A stretch of DNA of 64,000 nucleotides. Source: Candidatus Bipolaricaulota bacterium. Lineage in GTDB: Bacteria > Patescibacteriota > Patescibacteriia > UBA11705 > DATKZF01. Both the position numbers and the translations under genes were made by a program. Positions 6,061 to 61,790 of this stretch are shown piece after piece. Within the stretch, counting starts at the first letter, position 1. Each line of letters opens with the position of its first letter. The notes under the pieces are model-generated. The model saw only the letters and a list, made by a program, of their open reading frames with translations, was not told the origin of the DNA and ran no database searches. The stretch covers positions 423,089 to 487,088 of the forward strand of contig DATKZF010000003.1 of the NCBI GenBank assembly GCA_035528115.1, read 5' to 3'.

Positions 6061-6062
6061 AT

Positions 6063-12853: not shown

Positions 12854-13564
12854 ATGATGGTCAGTTTCAACAACAAAAAGATCAACGCTATTAAAACTCT
12901 GGGCGAGAAATTGCAGGAGCATCGTTTGAATTACGGATTGAGTTTGGAATCGATCTCCAAAGAGACAGCCATTAATTTGAAATATTTAATCGCGCTTGAA
13001 AGCGATAATTATGAAAAATTGCCGGCGGATATTTATACATGTAATTTTTTAAAAAAATACGCTGTTTTTTTGGATCTGAATCCGGAAACGGCGATTGAAA
13101 CTTACGTTCAGGAAAAAATTTTATATTACAAAACAAAAAAACAATGCAAAGAGATTAGGGATAAAAAAATAGGAAAAGTAAGAAAGGTTGTGAATTTTTT
13201 TCTTTCTCCGGTTTTTTTGAAATACTCTTTCTCCGTTGTGGTCGTGGCGGCCTTGTTGATATACATCGGTTGGAGCGTCAATAGAATTTTTACGCCCCCG
13301 CATTTGGTGATCATGGAGCCGCAAGACAGTTTGATAACCGTTTCGCGTCAATTATGGATAAAGGGAGAGTCCGAGAAGGAAGCTTTTTTAACCATGAACG
13401 GTCAGGAAATCATCAGCGACCATGATGGACGGTTTTCAAATAAGGTAGATTTGCAAAAAGGTTTAAATGTCATTAAAATAACAGCAAGGAAAAAGCACAG
13501 TAAGGAAAACGTGCAATATTTGCAAATTATATTGGAGGAAACCGGCAGTGTGTCTCAAAAATAA
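12854..13564 (+). CDS. RodZ-like protein (N-terminal HTH, single TM, C-terminal domain)
   Basis: HTH_XRE-like N-terminus (LGEKLQEHRLNYGLSLESISKETAINLKYLIALE), then TM segment VVVVAALLIYIGW, then an extracytoplasmic domain. The architecture matches RodZ. Confidence 0.5.
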   Translation: MMVSFNNKKINAIKTLGEKLQEHRLNYGLSLESISKETAINLKYLIALESDNYEKLPADIYTCNFLKKYAVFLDLNPETAIETYVQEKILYYKTKKQCKEIRDKKIGKVRKVVNFFLSPVFLKYSFSVVVVAALLIYIGWSVNRIFTPPHLVIMEPQDSLITVSRQLWIKGESEKEAFLTMNGQEIISDHDGRFSNKVDLQKGLNVIKITARKKHSKENVQYLQIILEETGSVSQK

Positions 13565-15284: not shown

Positions 15285-15372
15285 AGATTACAAGATTACG
15301 AGATTTGCATACGAGATTATACAGATTAACCCGATCTCGTACAATCTGTACACCAATCTGTAATCTCGTAAA
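15285..15372. promoter_or_regulatory. TACRAGAT word array (4 forward then 4 reverse copies) upstream of tsaD
   Basis: tacaagat, tacgagat, tacgagat, tacagat then atctcgta, atctgta, atctgta, atctcgta; ends 9 nt before the tsaD ATG. Confidence 0.45.
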
Positions 15373-15380
15373 TCCAATTT

Positions 15381-16397
15381 ATGAAGATATTAGCCATTGA
15401 AACCTCCTGCGATGAGACCGCGGCTTCAGTCGTTGAAATAAAAAACGGCAAATTCGCGGCTTTGTCCAATACGGTTTCATCTCAAATAAAAACTCACGCC
15501 AAATACGGCGGCGTTATTCCGGAAGTCGCCGGTCGTCTTCATATTGGAAAAATAATTCCGGTGATCGATGAAGCGTTGAGTTCCTCAAAAACGAAAATTG
15601 CCGAATTGAAAGCTTTGGCCGTGGTGTCGGGACCGGGCTTGGCGCCGTCTCTTCGAGTGGGCGTGGAAACGGCCAAAGCTTTGGCTTATGTCTGGCAAAA
15701 GCCGCTGATATCGGTCAATCATTTGGAAGGCCATATCGCGGCCGGTCTTTTTGAAAATAAAAAAGTTGCCATGCCCGCGGTTTGCTTGATCGCGTCCGGC
15801 GGCCATACTTCTTTGATTTATATAAAAAGCTGGGGCGGGTACGAAACAATCGGCCAAACCAGAGACGACGCGGCCGGAGAAGCCTTTGATAAGGTCGCGA
15901 AAATCATGGGACTTGGTTATCCGGGAGGCCCGCTGATTTCCAAATTGGCGGAAAATGGAAAAACCGGCCGATTCAAACTGCCTAGGCCGATGATTGATTC
16001 CGGCGATTTTGACTTTAGCTTTTCCGGTTTGAAAACAGCGGCTCTTTATTTGTATAAATCCAGAAAAACTTGGACTAAAAAAGACAAGGCTGACTTGGCC
16101 GCGGAATTTCAAGACGCGGTGATTGAAGTTTTGGTGGAAAAATCAATGAGCGCCGCGGAAAAATTAAAAGCCAAAAGTTTTATTTTGGGCGGTGGCGTTT
16201 CCGCCAACAAAAAATTGAGAGCAACGCTCAAGCGAGCCGGCCAAGACATCAAGGGCTTGAGCGTTTTTATTCCGCCTTTTGAATTCACCACTGACAACGC
16301 GGCCATGATCGGCGCGGCCGCGTATTTTCATTATAAAAATAAAAATTTTGTTGATCCGTTTGATTTGGTTGCGGAGCCACGATGGAGATTGATTTAA
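15381..16397 (+). CDS. tsaD: tRNA N6-adenosine threonylcarbamoyltransferase TsaD (Kae1/Gcp)
   Basis: 338 aa; MKILAIETSCDETAASV N-terminus, HLEGH metal-binding motif, GGGVSANKKL. Confidence 0.9.
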   Translation: MKILAIETSCDETAASVVEIKNGKFAALSNTVSSQIKTHAKYGGVIPEVAGRLHIGKIIPVIDEALSSSKTKIAELKALAVVSGPGLAPSLRVGVETAKALAYVWQKPLISVNHLEGHIAAGLFENKKVAMPAVCLIASGGHTSLIYIKSWGGYETIGQTRDDAAGEAFDKVAKIMGLGYPGGPLISKLAENGKTGRFKLPRPMIDSGDFDFSFSGLKTAALYLYKSRKTWTKKDKADLAAEFQDAVIEVLVEKSMSAAEKLKAKSFILGGGVSANKKLRATLKRAGQDIKGLSVFIPPFEFTTDNAAMIGAAAYFHYKNKNFVDPFDLVAEPRWRLI

Positions 16398-33829: not shown

Positions 33830-34001
33830 TCGTTACAAATTTACGAATTTCGTACACCTGCCTGCCGGCAGGCAGGAATATTACAAATGGTTACGAATTA
33901 TTTTCAGCACGGATTTGTTATGAACGTTTTCTAATTTGTACCATTATTATGATATTGTACTATCCTGTATGCGAATCTCGTACATCTCGTAACCAATAAT
34001 T

Positions 34002-34890: not shown

Positions 34891-34976
34891 GTCATGGAGC
34901 ATGAAACATGAATCATGGATCAAATGAAATAGCCGTGTCAGGCAGGCCAAACAATATCTAAATTAATTTTTTTAAG

Positions 34977-35065
34977 TAAATAAAAAATCGCCACTGCTTT
35001 TATGAGATCCCTGCCTGCCTGCCGGCAGGCAGGCTTCCGCGAGGATGACAATGAGGTGGTGATTT
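34977..35065. repeat. Composite palindromic terminator element (A-tract / stem / CCTGCCTGCCGGCAGGCAGG / GATGACA box / stem / T-tract) between convergent efp and SH3b gene
   Basis: aaaaaatcgccac...ccctgcctgcctgccggcaggcagg...gaggatgacaatgag gtggtgattttttg. Confidence 0.6.
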
Positions 35066-35079
35066 TTTGTTTGTTCAAT

Positions 35080-36833: not shown

Positions 36834-37065
36834 GTGTATGATAAATTTTCAGTGTTCGGTTCAAAAATCACAAAATGACGTTGTTATTATAGCAATATCA
36901 AAACATCTAGTCAATATGCCCAAAGTCGGCAAATTACTTGAAAAATTTCAATAAATCAGTTAGAATGAGTAAGAACTAATTATCATGAAACATGAATCAT
37001 GGATCATGAATCATTGATCAAGGCGAATTGATACATGATATGTGATACATGACACGTGAAAAAAT

Positions 37066-37388: not shown

Positions 37389-39398
37389 ATGGATATCACC
37401 ATTATTTTGGCGTTAATTGCCTCGCTCGTGGCAATCATTTACGGACTCATCCTGATCGGGTCAATATTAAAGAAGAGTCCTGGTTCGGATAAAATGCAGG
37501 AGATCGCCAAGGCCATCCAGGAAGGCGCGTCCGCTTATTTGAACAGACAATACCGCACCATCACCATTATCGCGGCCATAGTAGCGGTAGTGCTGTGGCT
37601 CGCCCTGGGCTGGAAGACCGCGCTGGGATTTTTAATCGGCGCGATTTTATCCGGATTGGCCGGCTACATCGGTATGAATATTTCCGTTAGAGCCAATGTC
37701 AGGACGGCTGAGGCGGCCAAACAAGGGTTGGCCAAAGCGCTTAATGTGGCTGTCCAAGGCGGAGCTGTGACCGGACTATTGGTCGTGGGCCTCGGACTTT
37801 TGGGCGTGGCCGGATTCTACGCGCTGACCGGCGACGTTAAGGCCTTGATCGGCTTGGGCTTCGGCGGCAGTTTGATTTCCGTTTTCGCCAGACTGGGCGG
37901 CGGCATTTACACCAAGGCCGCTGACGTGGGCGCGGATTTGGTGGGCAAAGTCGAAGCCGGCATTCCCGAAGACGATCCGAGAAATCCGGCTGTCATCGCG
38001 GACAATGTCGGCGACAATGTCGGCGATTGCGCTGGCATGGCCGCTGATTTGTTTGAAACATACGCGGTGACCTCAGTGGCGGCGATGCTGCTCGGCGCGC
38101 TGACTTTCCGAGGTTTTGATAATGGCGTGCTTTACCCGCTGGCTCTGGGAGCGGCCGCGATCATCGCTTCGATCATCGGCACTTTTTTCATCAAACTGGG
38201 TTCAAAGAAAAATATCATGGGCGCTCTCTATAAAGGACTTTTTGTCTCCGGACTTTTGGCGGGCATTATGTTTTATCCGATAACTTCTTGGCTGATGGGA
38301 GACAATACCGAATTTTCAATCATTAATTTATTTTTATGTTCGCTGATCGGTTTGGCGGTCACGGGCGCGCTGGTGGTTATTACCGATTATTACACTTCTC
38401 AAAAATACTCTCCGGTCAAATCAATCGCCAAGGCTTCAAAGACCGGACATGGCACCAATATTATCGCCGGCTTGGCCGTATCCATGAAATCGACTGTCTG
38501 GCCGATTCTGGTTATTGCCGCGGCCGTGCTCGGCGCTTATCAATTGGCCGGCATCTATGGCGTGGCGATCGCGGCCATGGCCATGCTTTCCATGACCGGC
38601 ATTGTGGTGGCCATTGACGCTTACGGACCGATTACCGATAATGCGGGCGGCATCGCGGAAATGGCGGAATTGCCCGAAGACGTGAGAAAAACAACTGACG
38701 CCTTGGACTCGGTGGGCAATACCACGAAAGCGGTGACCAAAGGTTATGCCATCGGTTCGGCCGGTTTGGCCGCGCTGGTTTTATTCGCGGATTTCACTCA
38801 CGCTCTTTCCGAAGGCACCGGTACGAATTTTCAATTTTTATTGAGCGACCCGAAAGTTTTGGTCGGCTTATTTATCGGCGGCTTATTGCCGTATTATTTC
38901 GGCGCCTTGGCCATGAGCGCGGTGGGCAAGACCGCGGGCAAGGTGGTTGAAGAAGTCAGAAGACAATTCAGGGAAATAAAAGGCATCATGAGCGGAGAAG
39001 CCAAACCCGATTATTCAACCTGCGTTGATATCGTGACTAAATCGGCGTTAAAGCAAATGATTTTACCGGCGTTGATTCCATTGCTCGTGCCGATTTTGGT
39101 CGGCTTTATCTTGGGACCGCACGCTTTGGGCGGACTGCTTGTCGGCAGCATTATCACCGGACTTTTCGTGGCCATTTCCATGACCACCGGCGGCGGCGCT
39201 TGGGACAATGCCAAAAAATACATTGAGTCAGGACATTTCGGCGGCAAAGGTTCTCTGGCGCACCAAGCGGCGGTGACCGGCGATACAGTGGGCGATCCTT
39301 ACAAGGACACAGCGGGCCCGGCCATTAATCCGATGATTAAAGTTTTGAATATTGTGGCGTTGCTGATTGTGGGGTTGATTATCAAGCTTTGGGCGTAA
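37389..39398 (+). CDS. hppA: Membrane-bound proton/sodium-translocating pyrophosphatase
   Basis: 669 aa, about 16 TM; canonical H+-PPase motifs [57 protein letters not shown]. Confidence 0.9.
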
Positions 39399-39511
39399 GG
39401 GTTACGAATTACGAATTTTGTACGAATGTTACAAATGGTTACTAATAAGGTAGATATGAAAAAAGCGTTCCGAAAGGGGCGCTTTTTGAGTTGTGATTTA
39501 TCGCCAAGCGG

Positions 39512-39540
39512 TTGACTGGGAGGGGTTTTGTTTGTAGGAT
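39512..39540 (+). promoter_or_regulatory. Promoter P1 of the radical-SAM locus (TTGACT-GGGAGGGGTTTTGTTTG-TAGGAT)
   Basis: Near-identical copy at 41160-41188. The track ORF start at 39512 is a TTG inside this -35 box. Confidence 0.5.
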
Positions 39541-39565
39541 GAATTATAACAGCCAAAGGGATAAT

Positions 39566-40387
39566 ATGAAAAATAATTCAATTAAAATCGGAATTATCGC
39601 GGGGAAAAAAGCGACTGACGCGGCTCTTTGCAAAGCAATACAAAATAATTTTTCCGATACAAATTTTTTTAAATATAAAATACCCGTTAAGGATTGGATA
39701 CCATGGATAATGAAGCGTATTTCCGATAGGGGAATTATGGTTTTGATTGGGAATGTCGCTCTTGCAATGTATTTACGACTGCAAAGGAAATACGAAAATT
39801 TCATCGGCAAATCATTATGGCTTAATTATCGCGGTTCGGTCCCTTCATGGAAGGGAATTGAAGTTAAGCGGCGCTTTTCGGAAGACGAGTTAATTAAAAA
39901 TTTGGCTGAAACGGATTTGGTGATTCTTTTGGATGCGTTTAGATTGTCGCATCATTTTTATCGAAAATTTAAAGGACCGATTTTTCAAATCGTCTGGGGT
40001 TCGCCTCCGGAATATTTGGGGGATTCGGGCGGGTTTTGGGCCTTTGCGATCGGGGACAAGGATAGAGTTGGCGTAAGCATTGTTCGGCGCTCTTCTCAAT
40101 TCGACAATTTTTTCGTTTTGGCGGACAAAAAAATTGAATGTGATGAATTTGAAAATCTCAGAACAATAAAAATAAAGCAGGTGGTTGAAATGGAACGATT
40201 GTTGCCTGAAAAAATAAAATCATTTATAGGAGAACGGGAAGAGACGCTAGTGAAAGAAAGAAGAACGGAGTATTGTCGTATCTTTCGAGCGCCAACGTTC
40301 CGGGAATATCGCAGATTTCTTAAAATGAAAAGGATAAATTCTTTCCCAAAAAATTCGTATTCTGAAAAGCAATGCGTAATCAAATAA
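39566..40387 (+). CDS. Formyltransferase-fold protein (Formyl_trans_N-like), catalytic Asn/His apparently substituted
   Basis: KIGIIAGKK N-terminus and GDKDRVGVSIVRRSSQFDNFFVL align with the formyltransferase N-domain (GxxxGVTIhxxxxxxDtGdIl). At the position of the N-x-H-x-SLLP catalytic motif the sequence reads FQIVWGSPPEY, with Q in place of N and W in place of H. Confidence 0.5.
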   Translation: MKNNSIKIGIIAGKKATDAALCKAIQNNFSDTNFFKYKIPVKDWIPWIMKRISDRGIMVLIGNVALAMYLRLQRKYENFIGKSLWLNYRGSVPSWKGIEVKRRFSEDELIKNLAETDLVILLDAFRLSHHFYRKFKGPIFQIVWGSPPEYLGDSGGFWAFAIGDKDRVGVSIVRRSSQFDNFFVLADKKIECDEFENLRTIKIKQVVEMERLLPEKIKSFIGEREETLVKERRTEYCRIFRAPTFREYRRFLKMKRINSFPKNSYSEKQCVIK

Positions 40388-40391
40388 AAAT

Positions 40392-41069
40392 ATGGATATT
40401 TCAAAAAGAAAAGTTTTAATTTTTTCTCTTGCGGGATTGCTTTCGTCTCTTTTTTTGCATGAGCGAAATTTATATTCGGACGCGGCCTTTCCCATCTCCG
40501 TTCGCGTCACCTTATTGCGTTTTTTTATTATCGCCTTCCCTTTATTGCTGGGCTTTCTGATTGCCAAACAAAAAAAACTTAATTTGCCCAAAATTATTTT
40601 TTTGATTTTATGGACAATATTCATCCCTTATACGATTTATTCAATATCGGAAATAAGGCATGTGGCGGAATTATGCAGATTGCCTGAAAATATTTTTTAT
40701 ACCGAGATGTGCCTTGAGCGAGCATGGTCGTTAATCCCCACTTTTATATATGCTTTTGGCGGAGTGATGATTTTCGTTTTTTCCGTTGTTCAAGTCGCTT
40801 CATCTCTTTACTCAAAATCAATCAAAAAACAGCTATGCATTCTTGCCCTGTGCGCTTACGCTTCATTCGCCAGCGTTTTCGGATTATATACCAGATTTAA
40901 TGTTTGGGATGGAATACTCCATCCGGTCACGGCGGTGAAATTAGCCGTAGACTCTTTTTCTCTCCCCTGGTTTATATCAAATTTTCTTATTTTCACTTTG
41001 TTTTTCATGGGTATTGTTTTCGTGGTCAATAAAATTTTAAGACACGCGAAGGAATATATTGCTGAATAA
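40392..41069 (+). CDS. Polytopic membrane protein (about 6 TM), unknown function, translationally coupled to the upstream gene
   Basis: 225 aa; 4-nt gap after the formyltransferase-like gene; hydrophobic helices throughout. Confidence 0.4.
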   Translation: MDISKRKVLIFSLAGLLSSLFLHERNLYSDAAFPISVRVTLLRFFIIAFPLLLGFLIAKQKKLNLPKIIFLILWTIFIPYTIYSISEIRHVAELCRLPENIFYTEMCLERAWSLIPTFIYAFGGVMIFVFSVVQVASSLYSKSIKKQLCILALCAYASFASVFGLYTRFNVWDGILHPVTAVKLAVDSFSLPWFISNFLIFTLFFMGIVFVVNKILRHAKEYIAE

Positions 41070-41084
41070 AAATTTTATATAAAA

Positions 41085-41150
41085 AAACCGTCACCGCTGC
41101 CTGCCGGCAGAATTTCTCGGGAATGACAGACAGGTGATGGCTTTTTGCTT
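41085..41150. repeat. Composite palindromic terminator element (family member)
   Basis: aaaaaaaccgtcaccgCTGCCTGCCGGCAGaatttctcGGGAATGACAGACAGGTGatggctttttg. Confidence 0.6.
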
Positions 41151-41159
41151 GAGGTGAGG

Positions 41160-41188
41160 TTGACTGGGAGGGGTTTTGTTCGTAGAAT
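41160..41188 (+). promoter_or_regulatory. Promoter P2 (TTGACT-GGGAGGGGTTTTGTTCG-TAGAAT), paralogue of P1
   Basis: 34 of 35 nt identical to 39512-39546, including the entire 17-bp spacer; about 35-nt 5'UTR to the rSAM ATG at 41228. Confidence 0.5.
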
Positions 41189-41227
41189 GAATTGAGGTGG
41201 CTATAGAAGTTAGTTAGGTGCAATAAT

Positions 41228-42367
41228 ATGAGAATAGAACCAAATGTTTCCACAATTTACGAAAATAAATTCCCTCAAAATTTTGTTAATGATGTTAACG
41301 GCTGGGCTTTTTCCCAAAATGAAATGAAAGATAATTTTGGAAAGCTTTTAACATTAGATATTGATTTTGGAAGTTTTTGTAATCTTAATTGCCCACATTG
41401 TTTTAGAAAAAACAATAATGTTGATTTTGGCAAAAACAAGATAATTGATTACGACAACATAGTGAATATTGTCAAAGAGGGCAAAAAATTAGGGTTGAAA
41501 TCTGTTAAATTTCTCGGGGCCGGTGAACCTTTTCAAGAAAAAAGATTTTTGGAATTTTTGAGAGAACTAAAAAAATTGGATATTATCCCGCTTATTTTTA
41601 CAAAAGGGCATGTTATTGGCGACGATAATGAGGTTAAAAAATGGTATTCTCAATATGGCATTTCCACCGGTGAAGAATTAGTTGAAGAATTGAAGAAAGT
41701 AAACGCCAGCATTTTATTGGGTTTTAATTCCTTTGATACAGAAATTCAAGATAAAATGATAGGTAATATCAAGGGTTATACTTTGAAAAGAAATCGCGCT
41801 TTAGAACTTTTAGCTAAGGCGGGTTTTAATAAACACAACCCAACAAAACTTTGTCTGGCCGCGAACCCGATCACCAATGATAATTACGAGGAAATTTTTG
41901 AAATATACAAATGGGGCAGAATTAGAAATATGTATGTTATTGTTTGTCCGACAATGATAAGCGGCAGGTGTGCCAAAGAATTTGAGTGGCATAAAATTAC
42001 CCCCTCCCCAGAAGAATTGATTGAATTGTACGTAAAAATTTATAAATTCAATCTTGAAAAAGGTATAATTACAATGAAGCAGCTTGAGGATGAGGGCATT
42101 GCTCCTTATGCCGGCGGTCATCCATGCAATCAGGTCGCTTGCGGCATGTATGTGACATTAACAGGCAAGGTTTTGAGATGCCCGGGCGATGATAGAACTT
42201 TATTGGGTGATATTTGGAGCGAATCGTTGAGAGATATTTGGTTCAAGTCGGAAAATTATGAGAGAGCAGGAACATTTAATTGCGTTTGTCCGCCAAAGTT
42301 TGGGAAGTCCATCCCGTGTGATTTATTTACAAAAGTGATGACGCGATTAAAAAAGGACAATGATTAA
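41228..42367 (+). CDS. Radical SAM enzyme with C-terminal Cys-rich auxiliary-cluster (SPASM/twitch-like) domain
   Basis: CNLNCPHC (CxxxCxxC) at residues about 51-58, GAGEPF SAM-binding motif, then C-terminal CNQVACGMYVTLTGKVLRC (C-x4-C-x7-G-x4-C) and CVCPPKFGKSIPC. Confidence 0.75.
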   Translation: MRIEPNVSTIYENKFPQNFVNDVNGWAFSQNEMKDNFGKLLTLDIDFGSFCNLNCPHCFRKNNNVDFGKNKIIDYDNIVNIVKEGKKLGLKSVKFLGAGEPFQEKRFLEFLRELKKLDIIPLIFTKGHVIGDDNEVKKWYSQYGISTGEELVEELKKVNASILLGFNSFDTEIQDKMIGNIKGYTLKRNRALELLAKAGFNKHNPTKLCLAANPITNDNYEEIFEIYKWGRIRNMYVIVCPTMISGRCAKEFEWHKITPSPEELIELYVKIYKFNLEKGIITMKQLEDEGIAPYAGGHPCNQVACGMYVTLTGKVLRCPGDDRTLLGDIWSESLRDIWFKSENYERAGTFNCVCPPKFGKSIPCDLFTKVMTRLKKDND

Positions 42368-42384
42368 CGTCCTCATCGCACTCA

Positions 42385-42470
42385 AAAAAAACCGCCACTG
42401 CTTTGAGATTCCCGCCTGCCTGCCGGCAGGCTTTCGCGGGAATGACAGACAGGTGTGGCGGTTTTTTATT
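42385..42470. repeat. Composite palindromic terminator element (best-preserved copy) between convergent rSAM gene and rny
   Basis: aaaaaaaccgccac tgctttgagattcccg CCTGCCTGCCGGCAGGC tttcgcGGGAATGACAGACAGGTG tggcggtttttt; outer stem accgccac/gtggcggt, inner stem ttcccgc/gcgggaa, central palindrome. Confidence 0.65.
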
Positions 42471-42520
42471 GAAGCTAATTGTTTCATGATCCATGATTCA
42501 TGTTCCATGCTCCATGACGT

Positions 42521-44038
42521 TTATCGCGCGTACTCAATCACTCTGTTTTCTCTAATCACAGTGACTTTGATTTCACCCGGATATTTAAGCTCGTCTTCAA
42601 TGTTCTTCGCTATTTGCTGAGCGATTTTGTGAGCGTCAATGTCATTGATCACTTCCGGCTGGACGAAAACTCGAATTTCTCGGCCGGCCTGAATGGCATA
42701 AGCTTTTTCCACGCCTTCCAATTTGGTGGCAATGTTTTCCAGCTCTTCCAATCTCTGCAAATAATTTTCATAAGTGTCTTTTCTGGCTCCGGGTCTGGCG
42801 CCGCTGATGGCGTCGGCCGCTTTGACGATAATCGCTTCCAAGGTGGTAGGTTTATCTTCGTGATGAGTCAGAATCGGAATGATTATTTCCTCGGGCAGAT
42901 TGAATTTTTTGGCAATGTCTCTGCCGATCTCGGGGTGAGTGCCTTGGATTTCATGATCCACGGCTTTGCCGATGTCATGCAAGAAGCCCGCTTTTTTGGC
43001 CACGGTCACGTCAGCGCCCAGCTGTTCCGCCAAAAGCGAGGACAGGTGAGCCACTTCCATGGAGTGCTGCAGGACGTTTTGTCCGTAACTCGTTCTGTAT
43101 TTCAATCGGCCGATTATCTGGACCAGTTTCGGGTCGAGGCCGGCAATGCCAACTTGATAGCAAGCTTCTTCGCCCGCTTTTTTTATTTCCAGCGCCAATT
43201 CTCTTTTGGCTTCTGCAATGCCTTCTTCGATTTTCGCCGGATGAATGCGTCCATCAATGATCAGTTTTTCCAGAGCTCGCTTCGCCACCTCGCGTCTGAT
43301 CGGACTGAAAGACGAAACGGTGATCACTTCGGGCGTGTCATCAACCACGATTTCCACGCCGGTCAATTGCTCGAAGGTTCTGATGTTTCTGCCTTCTCGG
43401 CCGATGATTCTGCCTTTCATTTCGTCAGAAGGCAGAGAGACCGTTGACGTGGTGATTTCCACGGCTTGACTGGCGGCGCAACGCTGAATCACATTGGCCA
43501 GCATCTTTTTTGCTTGGCGATCCAATTCCAGCGAGGCTTCCTCGTCCAGTTTTTTAATGCGGCTGGACAGAGCGTCGCTGACTTCTCTTTCCACATTGGC
43601 GAGCAGAACTTTTTGCGCCTGCTCTTTGTTCATGTTGGCGATCTTTTCGAGTTTTTCGATTTGATCGGCCTGGATTTTTTTAATTTTTTCTTTGGCCGCG
43701 TCGATTTCTTTGGCCTTGTCCTGCAATTTGGTGGTTTGGGCTTCCAGGTCCAAAAGTTTTTTGTCGAACAAATTTTCCCTGGTTTCCAATCTGTTTTGCA
43801 GTTCTTTCAATTCTTTTCTGCGGTTGTTTTCTTCTTTTTTGGCTTCGTCGATGATTTGAATGGCCTTTTCCCTGGCCGTGTACAAGATTTCTTGTTGCTT
43901 GGTCTTGGCCTCTTTGAGCATGTTTTCGGCCTTTGCTTCCGCGCCCCTGGCTTGATTGGCGGCAATGGCCTTTCTAATAAAATAACCGCTCAAAAAGCCA
44001 AGGCAGATAGCGGTTACACCGATAATAATATAAAGCAT
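42521..44038 (-). CDS. rny: Ribonuclease Y
   Basis: 505 aa; N-terminal TM, long coiled-coil, KH domain (GRIIGREGRNIRTFEQLTG), HD domain (HSMEVAHL...GFLHDIGKA). Confidence 0.9.
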   Translation of the reverse strand: MLYIIIGVTAICLGFLSGYFIRKAIAANQARGAEAKAENMLKEAKTKQQEILYTAREKAIQIIDEAKKEENNRRKELKELQNRLETRENLFDKKLLDLEAQTTKLQDKAKEIDAAKEKIKKIQADQIEKLEKIANMNKEQAQKVLLANVEREVSDALSSRIKKLDEEASLELDRQAKKMLANVIQRCAASQAVEITTSTVSLPSDEMKGRIIGREGRNIRTFEQLTGVEIVVDDTPEVITVSSFSPIRREVAKRALEKLIIDGRIHPAKIEEGIAEAKRELALEIKKAGEEACYQVGIAGLDPKLVQIIGRLKYRTSYGQNVLQHSMEVAHLSSLLAEQLGADVTVAKKAGFLHDIGKAVDHEIQGTHPEIGRDIAKKFNLPEEIIIPILTHHEDKPTTLEAIIVKAADAISGARPGARKDTYENYLQRLEELENIATKLEGVEKAYAIQAGREIRVFVQPEVINDIDAHKIAQQIAKNIEDELKYPGEIKVTVIRENRVIEYAR

Positions 44039-45516: not shown

Positions 45517-45729
45517 GTAAATGTCTCCTTTCAAATATAAGATGGTAATAGTTTAGCAGATTTTTAGGGGGTGTCAAGAAGGGCTGTTTTGAGGCAAAGG
45601 AGGTAGCTTGTAGCTTGTTAGCTTATTAGGTGAAATTAAAGCATAAAGCCACCTACAAGCTCACTCCAAATATTTACTTTCTTGAAAAAATATGATAAAT
45701 TAAACCCAGTTAATTCACTCAAAGATTTT

Positions 45730-51055: not shown

Positions 51056-51340
51056 AAAAACCTACAAGCTACCACCGCCTATTGCCTCTCCGGCCACCCA
51101 TCGTTGTCATCTCGACCCCTCGACTTCGCTCGGGGCATGCCGTAGTGGAGAGATCCCTTTTTGTAATCAATGAGGGATTTCTCCATTCCGCCCTTCGGGG
51201 CTCCCTGCCTACCCTGCCTGCCGGCAGGCAGGCGGCAGGCAGGCGGGAATCCACAAAGCAGCGGTAGAATCATAAGCGGCGGCTTAAATCCACCTAATAA
51301 GCTAATAAGCTACAAGCTACTACGCCTATTGCCTCTCCTC
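51056..51340. mobile_element. MITE-like non-coding insert (about 215 bp) flanked by about 30-bp direct repeats
   Basis: Direct repeats ctacaagctaccaccgcctattgcctctcc (51060-51090) and ctacaagctactacgcctattgcctctcc (51310-51340). The intervening sequence contains the reverse copy of the 2111-2170 unit (ccatcgttgtcatctcgacccctcgacttcgctcggggcatgccgtagtggagagatc) and ccctgcctgccggcaggcaggcggcaggcagg. Confidence 0.5.
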
Positions 51341-51364: not shown

Positions 51365-52669
51365 ATGAAGTCTCTAATAAAAAAATTCATTCCCAAAAGC
51401 GTTTTATCGCTTTACCACAAATTTTTGGCGATTGTGGCGCGTTTTGCGTTCGGCAATCCTTCTGAAAAAATGATTGTCATCGGCGTGACCGGCACGAACG
51501 GCAAGTCATCGACCGTAAAATTGATCGCCAAGGCCCTGGCGAGCGAAGGCGCCAAAGTCGGTTACACCTCCACTTCGGAATTTCAAATCGGCGACAAAGA
51601 ATGGCTCAACAAAACGAAAATGACCATGCTCGGCCGTTTTCAATTGCAAAAACTTTTGAAAAAAATGGTTGACGCGGGTTGCCGATACGCGGTGGTGGAA
51701 GTTTCTTCGCAAGGCGTGGAGCAATTTCGCCATTTTGGCATTAATTTCGATTACGCTATTTTTACGAATTTAACTCCGGAGCACATCGAAGCTCATGGAG
51801 GTTTTGAAAATTACAAAAAAGCCAAAGGCAAATTTTTCAAATTCCTGACTTTGCGGCCGCGAAAGAAAATTAACGGTCAAGAAATCAAAAAAGTCATGGT
51901 CGTCAATCGAGACGACGAGCACTCCGATTATTTCCTGTCTTTTCCGGCTGACAAAAAATTGATTTTCAGCGCCCAAGACAAATTAAGCGACGTTTTTGCG
52001 GAAAATATTAAAGTCTCGACTTTGGGCACCTCGTTTTCCGTTAAAGGCCTTGAAATAAATTTGCGTTTGCTGGGCAAGTTCAATGTTTACAACAGTTTGC
52101 CCGCGATCGCCATCGGTTTGAACGAAGGACTTGATTTGGAAAAAATAAAAGCCGCGCTCGAGGCCGCGAAAGTCATTCCCGGACGCATGGAATTGATAGA
52201 TGAGGGTCAGCCGTTTTCGGTCATTGTCGATTACGCGCCCGAGCCGTACAGCTTGGCGAAATTATATGAGACGCTTGATTTGATGCAAAAAAATAAATTG
52301 ATTCACGTCTTGGGTTCGTGCGGGGGCGGACGCGATGTGGCCCGTCGGCCGATTTTGGGCAAGATGGCCGGCGAAAAGGCGGACATTGTCATTGTCACCA
52401 ATGAAGATCCGTACGATGATGATCCTCAAAAAATAATTGATGAAGTGGCGGCCGGCGCGATCGGGGTTGGGAAAAAATTGAATGAAAATCTTTTTAAGAT
52501 ATTGGACAGAAAAGAAGCCATTGCCAAGGCCATGAATTTGGCCGGCGCCGGGGATTTGGTGGTTTTGACCGGCAAGGGTTCGGAGCAGGCGATTGTGGTG
52601 AAGAACAATAAGAAGATGCCGTGGGATGAGAGGGAGGCGGCGAGGGAGGTTTTGAGGAGGCGGTGTTAA
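51365..52669 (+). CDS. Mur ligase family protein (MurE/MurF-like UDP-N-acetylmuramoyl-peptide ligase)
   Basis: VIGVTGTNGKSST P-loop, DYAIFTNLTPEHIEAHGGFENYKKAKGKFF, C-terminal Mur_ligase_C. ATG 51365 preferred over the track start 51170, which reads through the MITE-like element. Confidence 0.8.
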   Translation: MKSLIKKFIPKSVLSLYHKFLAIVARFAFGNPSEKMIVIGVTGTNGKSSTVKLIAKALASEGAKVGYTSTSEFQIGDKEWLNKTKMTMLGRFQLQKLLKKMVDAGCRYAVVEVSSQGVEQFRHFGINFDYAIFTNLTPEHIEAHGGFENYKKAKGKFFKFLTLRPRKKINGQEIKKVMVVNRDDEHSDYFLSFPADKKLIFSAQDKLSDVFAENIKVSTLGTSFSVKGLEINLRLLGKFNVYNSLPAIAIGLNEGLDLEKIKAALEAAKVIPGRMELIDEGQPFSVIVDYAPEPYSLAKLYETLDLMQKNKLIHVLGSCGGGRDVARRPILGKMAGEKADIVIVTNEDPYDDDPQKIIDEVAAGAIGVGKKLNENLFKILDRKEAIAKAMNLAGAGDLVVLTGKGSEQAIVVKNNKKMPWDEREAAREVLRRRC

Positions 52670-54839: not shown

Positions 54840-54885
54840 TGGACTTGTTAAAATTGATAAGTACCGGATATAGCGACAAGATAAC

Positions 54886-54962
54886 TACGCAAAGAAGAAC
54901 AATAAAAAGATGCCGTGGGATGAGAGGGAGGTGGCGAGGGAGTGTTTGAGGAGGCGGGGGAA
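54886..54962 (+). repeat. Degenerate copy 2 of the Mur-ligase 3' terminus (att-like remnant)
   Basis: aagaacaataaaaagatgccgtgggatgagagggaggtggcgagggagtgtttgaggaggcggggg versus native 52600-52665. Confidence 0.7.
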
Positions 54963-55615: not shown

Positions 55616-55715
55616 ATGGAAGGCGCGGAGCAGGCGATTGTGGTTAAGAATAATAAAAAGATGCCGTGGGATGAGAGGGAGGCGGCGAGGGAGGTTTTGA
55701 GGAAAATCAACAAAT
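55616..55715 (+). repeat. Degenerate copy 3 of the Mur-ligase 3' terminus (about 85 bp, att-like remnant)
   Basis: ggagcaggcgattgtggttaagaataataaaaagatgccgtgggatgagagggaggcggcgagggaggttttgagg versus native 52572-52660. Confidence 0.7.
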
Positions 55716-55769: not shown

Positions 55770-58631
55770 ATGACAGGAAATTTTAAAATAGAAATCAGAC
55801 ATTTAGTTAAAAATTTTAAAGAGCAAGATGGTCAGAGACGGTCTGAAGAAGATATCCAAACCAGCTTTACTATTAAATTAATGGAGGTTCTCGGCTGGGA
55901 CAGCTCTCATTGGGCAATAAATACCGGTCAGGACGTAAAAACAGGCAAAAAGCCTGATATTGTTTTAAAATCAGGATCTTCAAAATTGATAGTTATCGAA
56001 TCAAAAGATGCCAAGAAAAAAGATATGCTTGACGGCTCATACGGCAACAAAACTTTTAAGCAGCAACTATTTAATTATTGCAAAGCGGAAGGGGTGGCCT
56101 GGGGTATTTTGACTAATTTTATTGAATGGCGATTGTACAGTGTTCATCATAGTCGATTATACAAAGAGAAGAAATATGCTTTTTACGATTTGTTATGGCC
56201 TAACGCAGATAAGAGCAGTTACGTGGATTTATTGTCCGATGAGGGGATGCAATTTCTAAATTTAATTTCAAAAGAAAATTTAATTAAAAAGAATGGAATT
56301 ATTGATCCTGATCCGATATATTATCCTGAACAGCTAGATATAGAGCAAGAAAAAATAAAAAAAGAATTTTTCAGCAAGATAAAAAATTGGCGCGAGAATT
56401 TACGAAAATTTATAAATAAAAATTATTCTAAATATACCCTTGAGGAAGTTGATTTAATGGCGCAGAAGATATTAGATCGAATGATTTTTATTGATATTTG
56501 TCATGATAAGGGCATTGTTTATGAAAATCATCTTCGTGCAATATTATCTTCAAAATTGCCCAAGTACGAAGAGTTGAAGGAGAAATTTAAGGTAATGAAC
56601 GAGAAGTTCAACACTGAGCTTTTTGCTCAAAATACTATTGATGAAATTAAAATTAGCAACGATGTAATAATCCCTATTATAGAAGAATTAGACGAAATCG
56701 ATTTTAGCAAACTTAGTGTTCACATTATTGGGGAAGTATATGAAAATTATCTGGGAGAGATAGCCAAGGGGAACGTGAAGAAAGAAGATGTAATGAAGGC
56801 AAAACAAAAAAATAAACGAAAATCGCAAGGTATATACTATACTCCTGATTACATTGTTGATTATATTGTCAAAAAGACAGTGGGTGAATTGTTGAAAAAA
56901 GCTAAAACAAAAGAGGATATAGAGAAAATTAGAGTTTTGGACCCTGCTTGCGGTTCGGGTTCGTTTTTAATTCGTGCTTTTGATGAGTTTTTTGAGGCAT
57001 ACAAGAGAGTAATGAAGGAAGGTGGGCTTTTAGGTTTTGAAATAAAGAAAAAAATATTGCAAAACAACCTTTTCGGCGTTGATTTAGATCCCAAAGCTGT
57101 GGAAATCGCCAAGCTAAACCTAATGATTAAGGCGCTTGAAGGCGCGACGCCAAACGAATTAAGAGGCGATCATTTGCTACCTAACTTGAATCTAAATATT
57201 CGTTGTGGCAATTCCTTGATTGGAGGGGAGAAGTTAAAAGAAAAGGAAAATAATTTGAATCTGTTTGACAAGTTTGACGATGAAATAAAAAAATTAATTG
57301 ATTTTAAGGAGCGGTTTCGTAAATCCATCTCTAATGATGAAAAAAAAGAAATTCTGAACGAAATTAATATATTTGAGGGATACATTAATAAAGAAGTAAA
57401 TGATAGCCTGTATAAATATTTCAAGAATTTGAATAGAATTAGGCCATTCAATTACACAATCGCTTTTTGTGAAATATTCAAAGACGGTGGATTTGATGCG
57501 GTGATTGGAAATCCGCCATATATTAGACCACATAGAATTGACACAAGTATAAAAGGATATTTATGGGAAAATTATTATTCATTCAAGGCAAAATCCGATA
57601 TCTACGTATGTTTCATTGAAAATGCAATACAACTCACGAAAAAAGGCGGACTAATTTCATATATAGTTTCAAACACATGGCTATCATTAGAGAGTTTCGA
57701 AAATCTACGAACTTTCATCCTAAACAATACAAAAATAAAAATGTTGATTAACCCTCCAGCAAAGGTTTTTAGTGGAGCGCAAGTGTCGACGATTGTTTTT
57801 GTTTTTGAAAAAGATGAATCTAAGGGAAATAAAATAATTGTAGGGGGATTATCTCAAAACGCATTCAAACTCGAGGGTGCAATAAAACAAACGCTGTTCA
57901 ATAAAACACACAAAAAAGTTTTCGATTTATCTTTACTAGATAAACAGGTTTTTTCAATAAAGGTTGCAACGACCCCGTTAAAAAAAGTCGCGAAATTTTA
58001 CTATGGAATAAAAACCGGAGATGATGAGAAATTTTTGACTTTCAAACCCAAAGATAAAAATAATTATAAACAACTTTTAAGAAGAAGTGATTTTAATCGA
58101 TATCTAATAGATTACAAAGGTGAGTATGTTTGGTACGCACCAGAATTAATGAAAGAAAATAAAGCCACCGCTCGGCCAGGAGAACCAAAAAGATTCGATG
58201 AAACAAAAATTATTATAACTGACATTGCAAAAAAAATAATTGCGACATTGGATTTACGACATTATTATATTAAAGATGCCTTAATCCTTCATCAAATAAA
58301 AAATGGTTATGATTTAAGGTATTTATTAGGTGTTATAAATTCAAAATTATTAAATTTTATCTACACCAAGACATTTAGAAATTTGAGCGTAGCTAAAAAC
58401 GCTTTTATGCAATTGCCAATTAAGATAATAGAGATTAGTGAAGAAAAAGCTTTGTATAACACAATTGTTCGCTTGGTAGACCAATTGCTTAAATTAAATA
58501 AGACTACAGAATCCCGCGAAATAAACAAAACAAAAATCCAGGCGCTGGATTATGAAATTGATAAGATGGTGTATAAGCTTTATGGGTTGGGGGAGTCTGA
58601 GATAAAAACAATTGAACAAGCTGTAAAATAA
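55770..58631 (+). CDS. Type IIG restriction-modification enzyme (MmeI/Eco57I-like: N-terminal PD-ExK nuclease, gamma-class N6-adenine methyltransferase, C-terminal TRD)
   Basis: 953 aa; nuclease motif KPDIVL...IVIESKD; MTase motif I VLDPACGSGSFLI and motif IV IGNPPYI. Confidence 0.8.
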   Translation: MTGNFKIEIRHLVKNFKEQDGQRRSEEDIQTSFTIKLMEVLGWDSSHWAINTGQDVKTGKKPDIVLKSGSSKLIVIESKDAKKKDMLDGSYGNKTFKQQLFNYCKAEGVAWGILTNFIEWRLYSVHHSRLYKEKKYAFYDLLWPNADKSSYVDLLSDEGMQFLNLISKENLIKKNGIIDPDPIYYPEQLDIEQEKIKKEFFSKIKNWRENLRKFINKNYSKYTLEEVDLMAQKILDRMIFIDICHDKGIVYENHLRAILSSKLPKYEELKEKFKVMNEKFNTELFAQNTIDEIKISNDVIIPIIEELDEIDFSKLSVHIIGEVYENYLGEIAKGNVKKEDVMKAKQKNKRKSQGIYYTPDYIVDYIVKKTVGELLKKAKTKEDIEKIRVLDPACGSGSFLIRAFDEFFEAYKRVMKEGGLLGFEIKKKILQNNLFGVDLDPKAVEIAKLNLMIKALEGATPNELRGDHLLPNLNLNIRCGNSLIGGEKLKEKENNLNLFDKFDDEIKKLIDFKERFRKSISNDEKKEILNEINIFEGYINKEVNDSLYKYFKNLNRIRPFNYTIAFCEIFKDGGFDAVIGNPPYIRPHRIDTSIKGYLWENYYSFKAKSDIYVCFIENAIQLTKKGGLISYIVSNTWLSLESFENLRTFILNNTKIKMLINPPAKVFSGAQVSTIVFVFEKDESKGNKIIVGGLSQNAFKLEGAIKQTLFNKTHKKVFDLSLLDKQVFSIKVATTPLKKVAKFYYGIKTGDDEKFLTFKPKDKNNYKQLLRRSDFNRYLIDYKGEYVWYAPELMKENKATARPGEPKRFDETKIIITDIAKKIIATLDLRHYYIKDALILHQIKNGYDLRYLLGVINSKLLNFIYTKTFRNLSVAKNAFMQLPIKIIEISEEKALYNTIVRLVDQLLKLNKTTESREINKTKIQALDYEIDKMVYKLYGLGESEIKTIEQAVK

Positions 58632-60343: not shown

Positions 60344-60375
60344 ATCATTCAAGGAGATGCACAATATTTTTGTTA

Positions 60376-60462
60376 TTTATCGCCTAAAATGGTCGGTTTG
60401 AATCCTATGTATTAGTTTGCACTAGCTAAAAAACCTCAATGTTTGCCGCCAAAAACATCCAC
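60376..60462 (+). repeat. 87-bp direct repeat, copy A (upstream of rhuM-fic)
   Basis: ttatttatcgcctaaaatggtcggtttgaatcctatgtattagtttgcactagctaaaaaacctcaatgtttgccgccaaaaacat, followed by terminator-like ccccgccccgcgcgggagattttttt (60463-60487). Confidence 0.7.
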
Positions 60463-61579: not shown

Positions 61580-61607
61580 CTCCCGCCTCCGCGCGGGAGT
61601 TTTTTTT
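61580..61607 (+). terminator. Rho-independent terminator after rhuM-fic
   Basis: ctcccgcctccgcgcgggagtttttttt. Confidence 0.6.
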
Positions 61608-61681
61608 GTTATTTACCGCCTAAAATGCTCGATTTGAATCCAAAGTATTAGTTTGCATTAGCTAAAAAACCTCAATACCTC
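61595..61681 (+). repeat. 87-bp direct repeat, copy B (downstream of rhuM-fic, upstream of rpoB promoter)
   Basis: ttatttaccgcctaaaatgctcgatttgaatccaaagtattagtttgcattagctaaaaaacctcaatacctcccgccaaaaacat; about 85% identical to copy A. Confidence 0.7.
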
Positions 61682-61790
61682 CCGCCAAAAACATTTGTCA
61701 AATTTTTTGTGGATAAGGTGGGAGTTGGCGATCGGAGGAGGGCGGAAATTAGTCTAAATTTAGCTAAATGCAGTGGCCTGCGCCTTGCCC

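What the first reader, a model, noticed from the sequence alone, without database searches (positions are those of the whole stretch)
39512..41188. Two promoters with an identical 17-bp spacer (GGGAGGGGTTTTGTTyG) separated by 1.65 kb
TTGACTGGGAGGGGTTTTGTTTGTAGGATGAATT (39512-39546) and TTGACTGGGAGGGGTTTTGTTCGTAGAATGAATT (41160-41194) differ at only 2 positions. Spacers of sigma70 promoters are normally unconstrained, so conservation of the full spacer plus the flanks points to a shared factor-binding site and co-regulation of the two transcription units. The G-rich GGGAGGGG block between -35 and -10 is unusual in a 40% GC genome.
Basis: seen in the sequence. Interest (0 to 1): 0.6.

Follow-up and report, generated by a model that had tools for sequence, protein, structure and literature searches.

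The report
Duplicated promoter in a cargo hotspot
Two adjacent gene units in a small uncultivated (Patescibacteria/CPR) bacterial genome carry near-identical copies of one ordinary-type promoter, most likely because the promoter was copied locally inside a fast-changing insertion hotspot, not because an unknown regulator binds it.

Summary
A 36-nt block, GGTTGACTGGGAGGGGTTTTGTTyGTAGrATGAATT, occurs at 39510-39545 and 41158-41193 on the + strand. The copies match at 34 of 36 positions, there is no third copy in 64 kb, and similarity stops sharply on both sides. Each copy reads as a sigma70-type core promoter: TTGACT, 17 nt, TAGGAT or TAGAAT. Each sits just after a terminator hairpin and 25-39 nt before an RBS and ATG.

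P1 drives a formyltransferase-like 273-aa gene plus a DUF1361 membrane gene. P2 drives a radical SAM/SPASM gene. All three are low-GC cargo (0.35-0.38, flanks 0.48-0.53) lying between the H+-pyrophosphatase and RNase Y genes. Three syntenic relatives (RNase Y 79-83% identical) each hold different cargo in that interval, and none has the motif.

Two of those relatives share one resident promoter there, with identical hexamers but only 9 of 17 spacer positions alike. Spacers therefore drift in this lineage. The two units also end in related hairpins (93% over 40 nt).

The best reading is a recent local copy of a promoter/terminator "slot". The two units probably share regulation because they share a promoter. 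The inferred factor-binding site has no support. The rest of the genome could not be searched.

The parts
37389..39398 (+). H+-translocating pyrophosphatase gene. It is the conserved left border of the variable interval.
   Evidence: Pfam H_PPase E 3.8e-276. The same gene borders the interval in relatives L021, L022 and L026.
39460..39487 (+). T0, the intrinsic terminator of the pyrophosphatase gene (AAAAAGCGTTCCGAAAGGGGCGCTTTTT).
   Evidence: Fold gives -17 kcal/mol, z -4.2. An orthologous hairpin is present in L021 and L022.
39510..39545 (+). P1, the first 36-nt promoter block: -35 TTGACT 39512-39517, spacer GGGAGGGGTTTTGTTTG 39518-39534, -10 TAGGAT 39535-39540, then GAATT.
   Evidence: A transcription start near 39547 is inferred, not shown.
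39566..40387 (+). 273-aa protein with no Pfam family and a formyltransferase-like fold. SD-like AAAGGGA lies at 39555-39561.
   Evidence: No Pfam hit. Only 3 homologue clusters at 41-46% identity. Weak PurN and FdtF sequence hits. AlphaFold model has pLDDT 70; Foldseek top hits are sugar N-formyltransferases, PurN and Fmt, E from 4e-6, TM about 0.5.
40392..41069 (+). DUF1361 membrane protein. It starts 4 nt after the preceding stop, so it belongs to the same unit as the 273-aa gene.
   Evidence: Pfam DUF1361 E 6.8e-11. The same gene pair is found in distant relatives L008 and L011.
41082..41146 (+). T1, a hairpin with a T-run. It is a truncated member of the T-hairpin repeat family; 41097-41136 is 93% identical to 42416-42455 in T2.
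   Evidence: Fold gives -23.4 kcal/mol, z -1.8, so it is probably a weaker terminator.
41158..41193 (+). P2, the second 36-nt promoter block: -35 TTGACT 41160-41165, spacer GGGAGGGGTTTTGTTCG 41166-41182, -10 TAGAAT 41183-41188, then GAATT.
   Evidence: A transcription start near 41195 is inferred, not shown.
41228..42367 (+). Radical SAM/SPASM enzyme of unknown substrate (379 aa). SD-like TAGGTG lies at 41215-41220.
   Evidence: Pfam Radical_SAM E 7.6e-17 plus SPASM. No NCBIfam model is reached. The closest homologues, 77-84% identical, sit in DPANN archaeal contexts.
42382..42472 (.). T2, a long bidirectional terminator hairpin shared by the convergent radical SAM and RNase Y genes. It is the full-length member of the T-hairpin family.
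   Evidence: Fold gives -47.2 kcal/mol, z -6.1. Family alignment with T1 and the copy at 34985-35066.
42521..44038 (-). RNase Y gene. It is the conserved right border of the variable interval.
   Evidence: Pfam RNase_Y_N, KH and HD. Synteny in L021, L022 and L026.

Best explanation
P1 and P2 are two copies of one housekeeping (sigma70/sigmaA-type) core promoter. Each starts one of two adjacent, same-direction transcription units: a formyltransferase-like gene plus a DUF1361 gene, and a radical SAM/SPASM gene. Both units sit inside a species-specific, low-GC cargo island in the interval between the H+-pyrophosphatase and RNase Y genes, which is hypervariable in this Patescibacteria lineage. The near-identity of the whole -37 to -2 region, spacer included, reflects recent common descent of the two copies and not a constraint imposed by a bound factor. 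Each unit begins with the same promoter and ends with a related terminator hairpin, so the locus looks like a tandem pair of [promoter-cargo-terminator] slots. Such a pair would arise by tandem duplication, or by a single crossover that integrated a second cargo unit carrying the same hotspot promoter and terminator. The inner T1-P2 junction is the join expected from either event. Because the promoters are the same, the two units should be transcribed with similar strength and the same dependencies. A GC-rich spacer, for example, is expected to make a promoter more dependent on negative supercoiling. What is shown: the repeat, its sharp limits, the promoter-like anatomy and position, the island's composition, the variability of the interval, the absence of the motif in relatives, and spacer drift in an orthologous promoter pair. 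What is inferred: promoter activity, transcription start points, the copying event and how it happened.
For: Anatomy. The hexamers and 17-nt spacing were found by scan and by eye. Each block lies 10-22 nt behind a terminator hairpin and 25-39 nt before an ATG preceded by an SD-like motif. Similarity covers exactly the core-promoter footprint and nothing else.

Not an RNA element. Fold z-scores are about 0, and there is no Rfam match even at E<=1.

The island is foreign and recent. Gene GC is 0.35-0.38 against 0.48-0.53 for the flanking genes. Relatives with conserved synteny (RNase Y 83, 80 and 79% identical) carry unrelated cargo in the same interval. The radical SAM gene is elsewhere in another relative, behind clpP and without its own promoter, and its nearest homologues are archaeal, so it needed a bacterial promoter here.

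Natural control. L021 and L026 (RNase Y 84% identical to each other) keep one resident promoter behind the pyrophosphatase terminator in front of unrelated cargo proteins. Their hexamers match 12/12, but the spacer matches only 9/17 and the block 26/36. For P1/P2 the figures are 16/17 and 34/36.

Shared ends. T1 and T2 are 93% identical over 40 nt, a divergence similar to that of P1/P2.

No spread. There are only two copies in 64 kb and none in relatives or collections.

Literature. Promoter reuse upstream of unrelated genes is common in prokaryotes, and its authors say explicitly that high identity may be either selection or recent duplication (PMC3575422). GC-rich spacers raise supercoiling dependence (PMC8695583). 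Spacer sequence modulates sigma70 promoters without any extra factor (PMC3130263).
Against: No transcription data exist, so promoter activity and start sites are inferred. The source genome (contig of 604-763 kb) is not in the searchable DNA collections, so further copies elsewhere in the genome cannot be excluded. The sharp 3' limit of similarity just after the -10 region fits selection on a functional module as well as it fits a recombination boundary. The G-only upstream half of the spacer is atypical for this genome and is not explained by duplication alone. T1 lacks the left half of the T2 hairpin, so an extra deletion must be assumed. All three recovered copies of the locus are 100% identical, so there is no polymorphism with which to date the event.
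Confidence: 0.62

Rival explanations
1. One reading: the conserved spacer (GGGAGGGGTTTTGTT) is the operator for a trans-acting regulator, or marks dependence on a special sigma factor, that co-regulates the two units and possibly a wider regulon.
For: The spacer is 16/17 identical while an orthologous promoter pair in relatives keeps only 9/17. The G-run is a clear compositional outlier among promoter-like sites in the window. The conserved block covers exactly the region where a spacer-binding factor would sit.
Against: There are only two copies, adjacent, in one genome, and no conservation in any relative or collection. The block has no dyad or direct-repeat symmetry (read from the sequence; fold z about 0). 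The spacer is 17 nt, not the 19-20 nt of MerR-type promoters (PMC8169799). No transcription factor or sigma gene lies in or next to the island; the only HTH protein found among the ORFs checked in the window is an HTH_25 protein at 12854-13564. Paralogous identity within one genome cannot show constraint.
Confidence: 0.17
2. The 36-mers are primarily recombination substrates or scars: short direct repeats that bound exchangeable cargo cassettes at the hotspot (att-like or homology arms). Their promoter-like appearance would be secondary.
For: Direct repeats flank the 1.65-kb formyltransferase-like/DUF1361 module. A second repeat pair (T1/T2) flanks the radical SAM gene. The interval is hypervariable. 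In distant relatives the same two-gene module is flanked by a roughly 30-nt inverted repeat.
Against: No integrase, recombinase or transposase lies in or beside the island. The repeat coincides base-for-base with a complete -35/17/-10 promoter placed correctly before both genes. The longest exact shared run is only 23 nt. T-hairpins are a genome-wide family and are not specific to this locus.
Confidence: 0.12
3. The block is transcribed and acts as a leader: GGGAGGGG would be a strong Shine-Dalgarno sequence for a mini-ORF (TTG TTY GTA GRA TGA, giving MFVG*/MFVE*), or the block would be another 5'-UTR element.
For: An SD-like GGAGG lies 4 nt before an in-frame TTG...TGA mini-ORF in both copies, and the T/C difference is synonymous (read from the sequence).
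Against: No promoter or space for one exists between the upstream terminators and the blocks. This reading leaves the conserved GGTTGACT and the exact 17-nt spacing to TAGRAT unexplained. There is no RNA structure and no Rfam hit. The second difference is non-synonymous (Gly/Glu).
Confidence: 0.03

Closest known systems
Promoter reuse / 'putative mobile promoters' (Matus-Garcia, Nijveen & van Passel, NAR 2012; commentary PMC3575422)
   Same: Highly similar promoter-region sequence upstream of non-homologous genes within one genome, not tied to a known mobile element. The authors leave open whether such identity reflects selection or recent duplication.
   Different: The block here is only 36 nt, below their cut-off of at least 50 nt at 80% or more. 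It covers the core promoter itself, whereas their window (-150 to -50 from the start codon) mostly excluded the -10 box. The two copies are adjacent, 1.65 kb apart, inside one cargo island, and are paired with duplicated terminator hairpins.
Sequence-dependent spacer effects in sigma70 promoters (Singh et al. 2011, PMC3130263; Klein et al. 2021, PMC8695583)
   Same: A spacer can matter without any extra factor. Spacer GC content tunes strength and supercoiling sensitivity, which gives a factor-free way for the shared G-rich spacer to give both units the same behaviour.
   Different: Those results come from E. coli. Nothing has been measured for Patescibacteria RNA polymerase, and no effect of GGGAGGGG specifically is known.
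MerR/CueR-type regulation through the promoter spacer (PMC8169799)
   Same: A regulator binds between the -35 and -10 elements, so the spacer sequence is conserved among its targets.
   Different: MerR-type promoters have over-long 19-20 bp spacers with dyad symmetry and usually an adjacent regulator gene. Here the spacer is 17 nt, lacks symmetry, and no regulator gene is nearby.
Repeat elements that carry promoters or terminators (Correia elements, ERIC, REP/REPIN; cited in PMC3575422)
   Same: Short intergenic repeats that supply transcription signals. The T-hairpin family in this genome resembles REP-like terminator repeats.
   Different: The 36-mer has no inverted-repeat ends, no hairpin, and only two copies in 64 kb.

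Membership tests
Sigma70/sigmaA-type housekeeping promoter | -35 hexamer close to TTGACA | tested here: met
   TTGACT (5/6) in both copies.
Sigma70/sigmaA-type housekeeping promoter | Spacer of 17 +/- 1 nt | tested here: met
   17 nt in both copies.
Sigma70/sigmaA-type housekeeping promoter | -10 hexamer close to TATAAT, with A at position 2 and T at position 6 | tested here: met
   TAGGAT (4/6) and TAGAAT (5/6), both with A2 and T6.
Sigma70/sigmaA-type housekeeping promoter | Placed in an intergenic region upstream of a gene, downstream of the previous unit's terminator | tested here: met
   Each block follows a hairpin plus T-run and precedes an SD-like motif and ATG by 25-39 nt.
Sigma70/sigmaA-type housekeeping promoter | Transcription initiates about 7 nt downstream of the -10 hexamer | not testable with these tools
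   No transcriptome or 5'-end data are available.
Transcription-factor operator in the spacer (MerR-type or similar) | Over-long (19-20 bp) spacer | tested here: not met
   The spacer is 17 nt.
Transcription-factor operator in the spacer (MerR-type or similar) | Dyad or direct-repeat symmetry of the site | tested here: not met
   There is no internal complementarity apart from a terminal AATT. Fold z is 0.17 and 0.02.
Transcription-factor operator in the spacer (MerR-type or similar) | Cognate regulator encoded nearby | tested here: not met
   The island genes are formyltransferase-like, DUF1361 and radical SAM, and the neighbours are housekeeping genes.
Transcription-factor operator in the spacer (MerR-type or similar) | Site conserved at orthologous or multiple targets across genomes | tested here: not met
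   Absent from relatives L021-L026. The collection scans gave only 4 unrelated hits.
Putative mobile promoter (Matus-Garcia et al. 2012 criteria, as described in PMC3575422) | At least 80% identity over at least 50 nt in the upstream region | tested here: not met
   Identity is 94%, but over only 36 nt, and the flanks do not align.
Putative mobile promoter (Matus-Garcia et al. 2012 criteria, as described in PMC3575422) | Downstream coding sequences are not paralogous | tested here: met
   Formyltransferase-like protein versus radical SAM enzyme.
Dispersed intergenic repeat (REP/MITE-like) | Many copies scattered over the genome | tested here: inconclusive
   There are two copies in the 64-kb window. 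The rest of the genome could not be reached, because the source contig is absent from the scanned collections.
Dispersed intergenic repeat (REP/MITE-like) | Palindromic or terminal-inverted-repeat structure | tested here: not met
   No structure was found.

The most novel reading that the evidence does not exclude
The 36-bp block could be a dedicated, portable 'expression slot' promoter that this Patescibacteria lineage uses to switch on foreign cargo, including a gene of archaeal-type ancestry, at a recombination hotspot. Its G-rich spacer would be a functional element, either a binding site for an unknown regulator or a built-in supercoiling or growth-state sensor. The matching promoter and terminator ends would serve as homology arms for cassette exchange between strains.
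Probability: 0.12. Interest if true: 0.55.

Novelty: new member of a known kind. Interest (0 to 1): 0.27.

Why it matters
The finding as stated, a new regulon motif, would matter for CPR/Patescibacteria, whose transcriptional regulation is almost unknown. The evidence does not reach that far. What it shows is a clean small example of promoter reuse. A foreign radical SAM gene, whose closest relatives are archaeal, and a neighbouring cargo operon are each fitted with the same host-type promoter and a related terminator, at an interval that carries different cargo in every relative examined. That is useful for understanding how reduced-genome episymbionts wire in acquired genes, and it points to a concrete integration hotspot. 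It is also a caution: identity between two paralogous promoters in one genome is not evidence of constraint on the spacer.

Tried and rejected
- **Regulon search by DNA pattern.** I scanned for TTGACNGGGAGGGGTTTTNNNNNTANNAT in metagenome contigs (1 hit) and genome contigs (3 hits).
  - Neither collection returned the window's own two sites, so neither holds the source genome. The genome-wide question stays open.
  - The 4 hits are promoter-like sites in unrelated organisms: three Clostridiales/Eubacteriales MAGs and one 62% GC contig, in front of unrelated genes.
  - My arithmetic gives about 0.27 expected in 596 Gb of random sequence. More are expected at real promoters, where TTGAC and TAnnAT are enriched. 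I treat the hits as chance or convergence, not as a family.
- **Viral contigs.** Two patterns gave 0 hits.
- **Orthologue comparison through the 273-aa protein.** Only 41-46% identical relatives exist, on contigs of 1.1-1.9 kb, too distant to compare promoters. They lack the motif.
- **Strain variation.** L001-L003 are 100% identical to the window, so they are uninformative.
- **RNA element.** No Rfam match at gathering threshold or at E<=1, and no structure.
- **Alternative sigma readings, judged from my own knowledge of consensus sequences.**
  - A Bacillus sigmaH-like reading (AGGAWWW, 11-12 nt, RnnGAAT) fits GAAT, but the -35 part and the spacing (10 nt) fit poorly.
  - ECF and sigma54 consensus sequences do not fit.
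  - There is no extended -10 TGn.
- **G-quadruplex.** There are too few separated G-runs.
- **The 86-aa ORF at 42360-42620**, called in one annotation. It runs through the T2 hairpin and overlaps the RNase Y 3' end, and it has no family. It is probably not a gene.
- **Residual similarity between the sequence after T2 and the T1-P2 linker.** Nothing convincing by eye.
Full report
**1. Observation**

The two quoted sequences are present at 39512-39545 and 41160-41193 on the + strand. The sequences differ at two positions and lie 1648 bp apart.

Aligning the surroundings shows that identity extends 2 nt further upstream (GG). This gives a 36-nt block, GGTTGACTGGGAGGGGTTTTGTTyGTAGrATGAATT, identical at 34 of 36 positions. 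On both sides the sequences become unalignable, apart from ATAATATGA at the two start codons.

None of 100 dinucleotide-preserving shuffles gave a match. The next best match to the 36-mer anywhere in the window, on either strand, has 14 mismatches. The window has 42.3% GC.

Among the 19 sites in the window that fit TTGACN-N16-18-TAnnnT, these two have 9 G in the spacer. The others have 1-6, and most of those spacers are AT-rich. The spacer is 16/17 identical, not fully identical.

**2. Anatomy of the locus**

The order on the + strand is as follows.
- H+-pyrophosphatase gene, 37389-39398 (Pfam E 3.8e-276).
- Terminator T0, 39460-39487 (-17 kcal/mol, z -4.2).
- P1, 39510-39545.
- SD-like AAAGGGA, then a 273-aa gene at 39566-40387.
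- A DUF1361 membrane-protein gene at 40392-41069, starting 4 nt after the previous stop.
- Hairpin T1, 41082-41146 (-23 kcal/mol, z -1.8).
- P2, 41158-41193.
- SD-like TAGGTG, then a radical SAM/SPASM gene at 41228-42367.
- Long hairpin T2, 42382-42472 (-47 kcal/mol, z -6.1).
- The convergent RNase Y gene, 42521-44038 on the - strand.

Each block reads as TTGACT, 17 nt, TAGGAT or TAGAAT. Each covers about -37 to -2 relative to the expected start point, which is the core-promoter footprint. The blocks have no RNA secondary structure beyond shuffled controls (z 0.17 and 0.02). The region has no Rfam match even at E<=1.

T1 and T2 belong to one repeat family. Positions 41097-41136 and 42416-42455 are 93% identical, and there is a further member at 34985-35066. 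T1 lacks the left half of the hairpin.

**3. The genes behind the promoters**

The 273-aa protein has no Pfam family and is close to an orphan. Besides its own cluster, only three clusters were found, at 41-46% identity. Weak sequence hits point to PurN and sugar N-formyltransferase. A model of moderate confidence (pLDDT 70) matches sugar N-formyltransferases, PurN and Fmt, with Foldseek E from 4e-6 and TM about 0.5. In the distant relatives it is again followed by DUF1361, so the pair is a conserved module.

The radical SAM/SPASM protein reaches no NCBIfam equivalog. It belongs to a tightly conserved family shared by Patescibacteria and DPANN archaea. Its best non-self hits (77-84% identical) lie on contigs that also encode a histone-fold protein, aIF5A, an archaeal CCA-adding enzyme or TrmB.

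**4. Organism and evolutionary context**

The best RNase Y hits are labelled Patescibacteria group bacterium (79-83%) and Kuenenbacteria/Falkowbacteria (about 70-73%). NCBI labels the MAG 'Candidatus Bipolaricaulota', which does not fit these relatives. The window comes from a JGI contig of 604 kb, and the longest contig carrying these proteins is 763 kb.

Three relatives keep the surrounding gene order: RbfA, DHH, GyrA, a metallo-beta-lactamase-fold protein, S1, RNase Y, a variable interval, H+-pyrophosphatase, L32. Each carries different cargo in the interval.
- L021: one 202-aa hypothetical protein.
- L022: proteins of 567, 652 (HATPase_c_3) and 894 aa.
- L026: proteins of 278 and 492 aa.

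 A fourth relative, L023, has another arrangement.

In L024/L025 the radical SAM gene sits directly behind clpP without its own promoter. In the window, clpP is at 9347-9919 and has no such neighbour.

The three island genes have GC of 0.35-0.38, against 0.53 and 0.48 for the bordering genes. The interval is therefore a cargo hotspot, and the island with both promoters is specific to this species among the genomes recovered. None of the relatives contains the motif or its spacer.

**5. A natural control for spacer drift**

Behind the conserved pyrophosphatase terminator, every relative has a canonical promoter with an AT-rich spacer.

L021 and L026, whose RNase Y proteins are 84% identical, clearly share the same promoter there. 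The two hexamers match 12/12 and the bases just after the -10 element are conserved, although the proteins downstream are unrelated. Their spacers match at only 9 of 17 positions, and the 36-nt equivalent block at 26 of 36.

This shows two things. The promoter belongs to the hotspot 'slot' rather than to the cargo. And spacers are free to drift in this lineage. P1 and P2, at 16/17 and 34/36, are therefore either very young copies or under unusual constraint.

**6. Weighing the explanations**

Here the two sites are paralogous copies 1.65 kb apart in a single genome, and recent copying gives the same picture.

Points against a dedicated factor:
- No conservation in any relative or collection.
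- No symmetry in the site.
- A normal 17-nt spacer rather than the over-long spacer of MerR-type promoters (PMC8169799).
- No regulator gene in or near the island.

Points for copying:
- The two units share their 3' ends as well (T1/T2), at a divergence similar to P1/P2.
- The inner T1-P2 junction is exactly what a tandem duplication of a [promoter-cargo-terminator] unit would create. A single crossover integrating a second unit from another strain's hotspot would create the same junction.
- A gene with archaeal-type relatives could not have brought a bacterial promoter with it.

Promoter reuse upstream of unrelated genes is a documented and common phenomenon. Its describers state that high identity may mean either selection or recent duplication (PMC3575422). 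This case is shorter than their 50-nt criterion, so I do not file it as a formal member.

The shared promoter still implies shared behaviour. In E. coli, spacer sequence modulates sigma70 promoters without extra factors (PMC3130263), and GC-rich spacers make promoters depend more on negative supercoiling (PMC8695583). Whether that holds for this organism is unknown.

Confidence by explanation:
- Duplicated promoter module: about 0.62.
- Factor-binding site: about 0.17.
- Recombination arms or scars as the primary role: about 0.12.
- Transcribed leader or mini-ORF: about 0.03.

**7. Limits**

The source genome is not in the DNA collections that can be scanned. The pattern did not even recover the window's own sites. 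Only 64 kb, roughly a tenth of the contig, was searched for further copies.

There are no transcription data. The three independent recoveries of the locus are 100% identical, so the copying event cannot be dated.

The four pattern hits elsewhere (TTGACrGGGAGGGGTTTT... at promoter-like sites in three Clostridiales/Eubacteriales MAGs and one high-GC contig) precede unrelated genes. They are best treated as chance or convergence.

**8. Verdict**

This is a real and non-random repeat. It is almost certainly a pair of functional-looking sigma70-type promoters, best explained as a local reuse of one promoter within a species-specific cargo island at a hypervariable hotspot. It is a new example of a known kind of event and of modest interest. 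The regulon and factor reading is not excluded, but nothing found here supports it.

Noticed in passing
window 39399-42520; loci L021 11519-12706, L022 11519-18249, L026 1860-4691: The interval between the RNase Y and H+-pyrophosphatase genes carries completely different cargo in each of four related Patescibacteria genomes with otherwise conserved gene order. It is a hypervariable integration hotspot with a resident promoter behind the pyrophosphatase terminator.
   Followed up: partly
window 41228-42367; loci L014-L020, L024: The radical SAM/SPASM protein belongs to a very tightly conserved family (60-84% identity) shared between Patescibacteria and DPANN archaea. Its closest relatives lie in clearly archaeal gene contexts (histone, aIF5A, archaeal CCA enzyme). 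This suggests recent inter-domain transfer. The substrate is unknown.
   Followed up: partly
window 33857-33877, 34985-35066, 41082-41146, 42382-42472, 51213-51244; also L021 about 11845-11870: A family of long GC-rich hairpins built around CCTGCCTGCCGGCAGGCAGG, flanked by A- and T-runs, recurs between genes. They look like REP-like bidirectional terminators. The core palindrome also occurs in a relative.
   Followed up: partly
window 39399-39450, 3758-3783, 33877-33902; 34891-34922, 36984-37020, 42480-42518; 45603-45639 / 51284-51320; 6052-6147 / 15288-15382: Arrays of short, slightly varied 7-8-nt motifs sit directly after stop codons in many intergenic regions. Examples are TACGAAT/TTACAAAT, CATGAAA/CATGGAT, GTAGCTT and TACAAGAT/TACAGAT. 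Relatives have the same kind of arrays with other motifs (L021, L022, L026). Their function is unknown.
   Followed up: no
L008 1-61 and about 1565-1600; L011 about 40-75 and about 1600-1635: In distant relatives the formyltransferase-like/DUF1361 gene pair is flanked by a roughly 30-nt inverted repeat (GTGTTAGGCGAAATATATTTTTCACTTTTT and its complement), and several contigs end near it. In the window the same pair is flanked by the direct repeats P1 and P2.
   Followed up: no
window 39566-40387: The near-orphan 273-aa protein is predicted to have a formyltransferase-like fold (sugar N-formyltransferase, PurN, Fmt) with an inserted pair of long helices. Paired with a DUF1361 membrane protein, it may modify an envelope component.
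   Followed up: partly
L004 3134-3162, L005 2206-2234, L006 1092-1120, L007 4098-4126 (all - strand): Four unrelated organisms have promoter-like sites with the same start of the spacer (TTGACrGGGAGGGGTTTT...TAnAAT) upstream of unrelated genes. This is slightly more than a uniform random model predicts, and is probably chance or convergence.
   Followed up: partly
window 2022-2142 and 2128-2179 / 51103-51154: Three tandem 47-nt repeats lie next to a 52-nt segment that recurs inverted 49 kb away at 90% identity. In relative L021 an 84-nt unit containing a TTGACA-like motif is repeated three times in tandem (15354-15616).
   Followed up: no
window 52581-52658, 54875-54952, 55626-55703; 60367-60458 / 61603-61694: A 78-nt segment recurs three times (74-96% identity) at or after the ends of consecutive ORFs next to a Mur ligase gene. 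Separately, 92-nt direct repeats (89% identity) flank a RhuM/Fic-family gene beside a type IIG-like restriction-modification gene (55770-58631).
   Followed up: no
window 42360-42620: An 86-aa ORF, called as a gene in one public annotation, runs through the T2 terminator hairpin and overlaps the 3' end of RNase Y. It has no family match and is probably a false gene call.
   Followed up: partly
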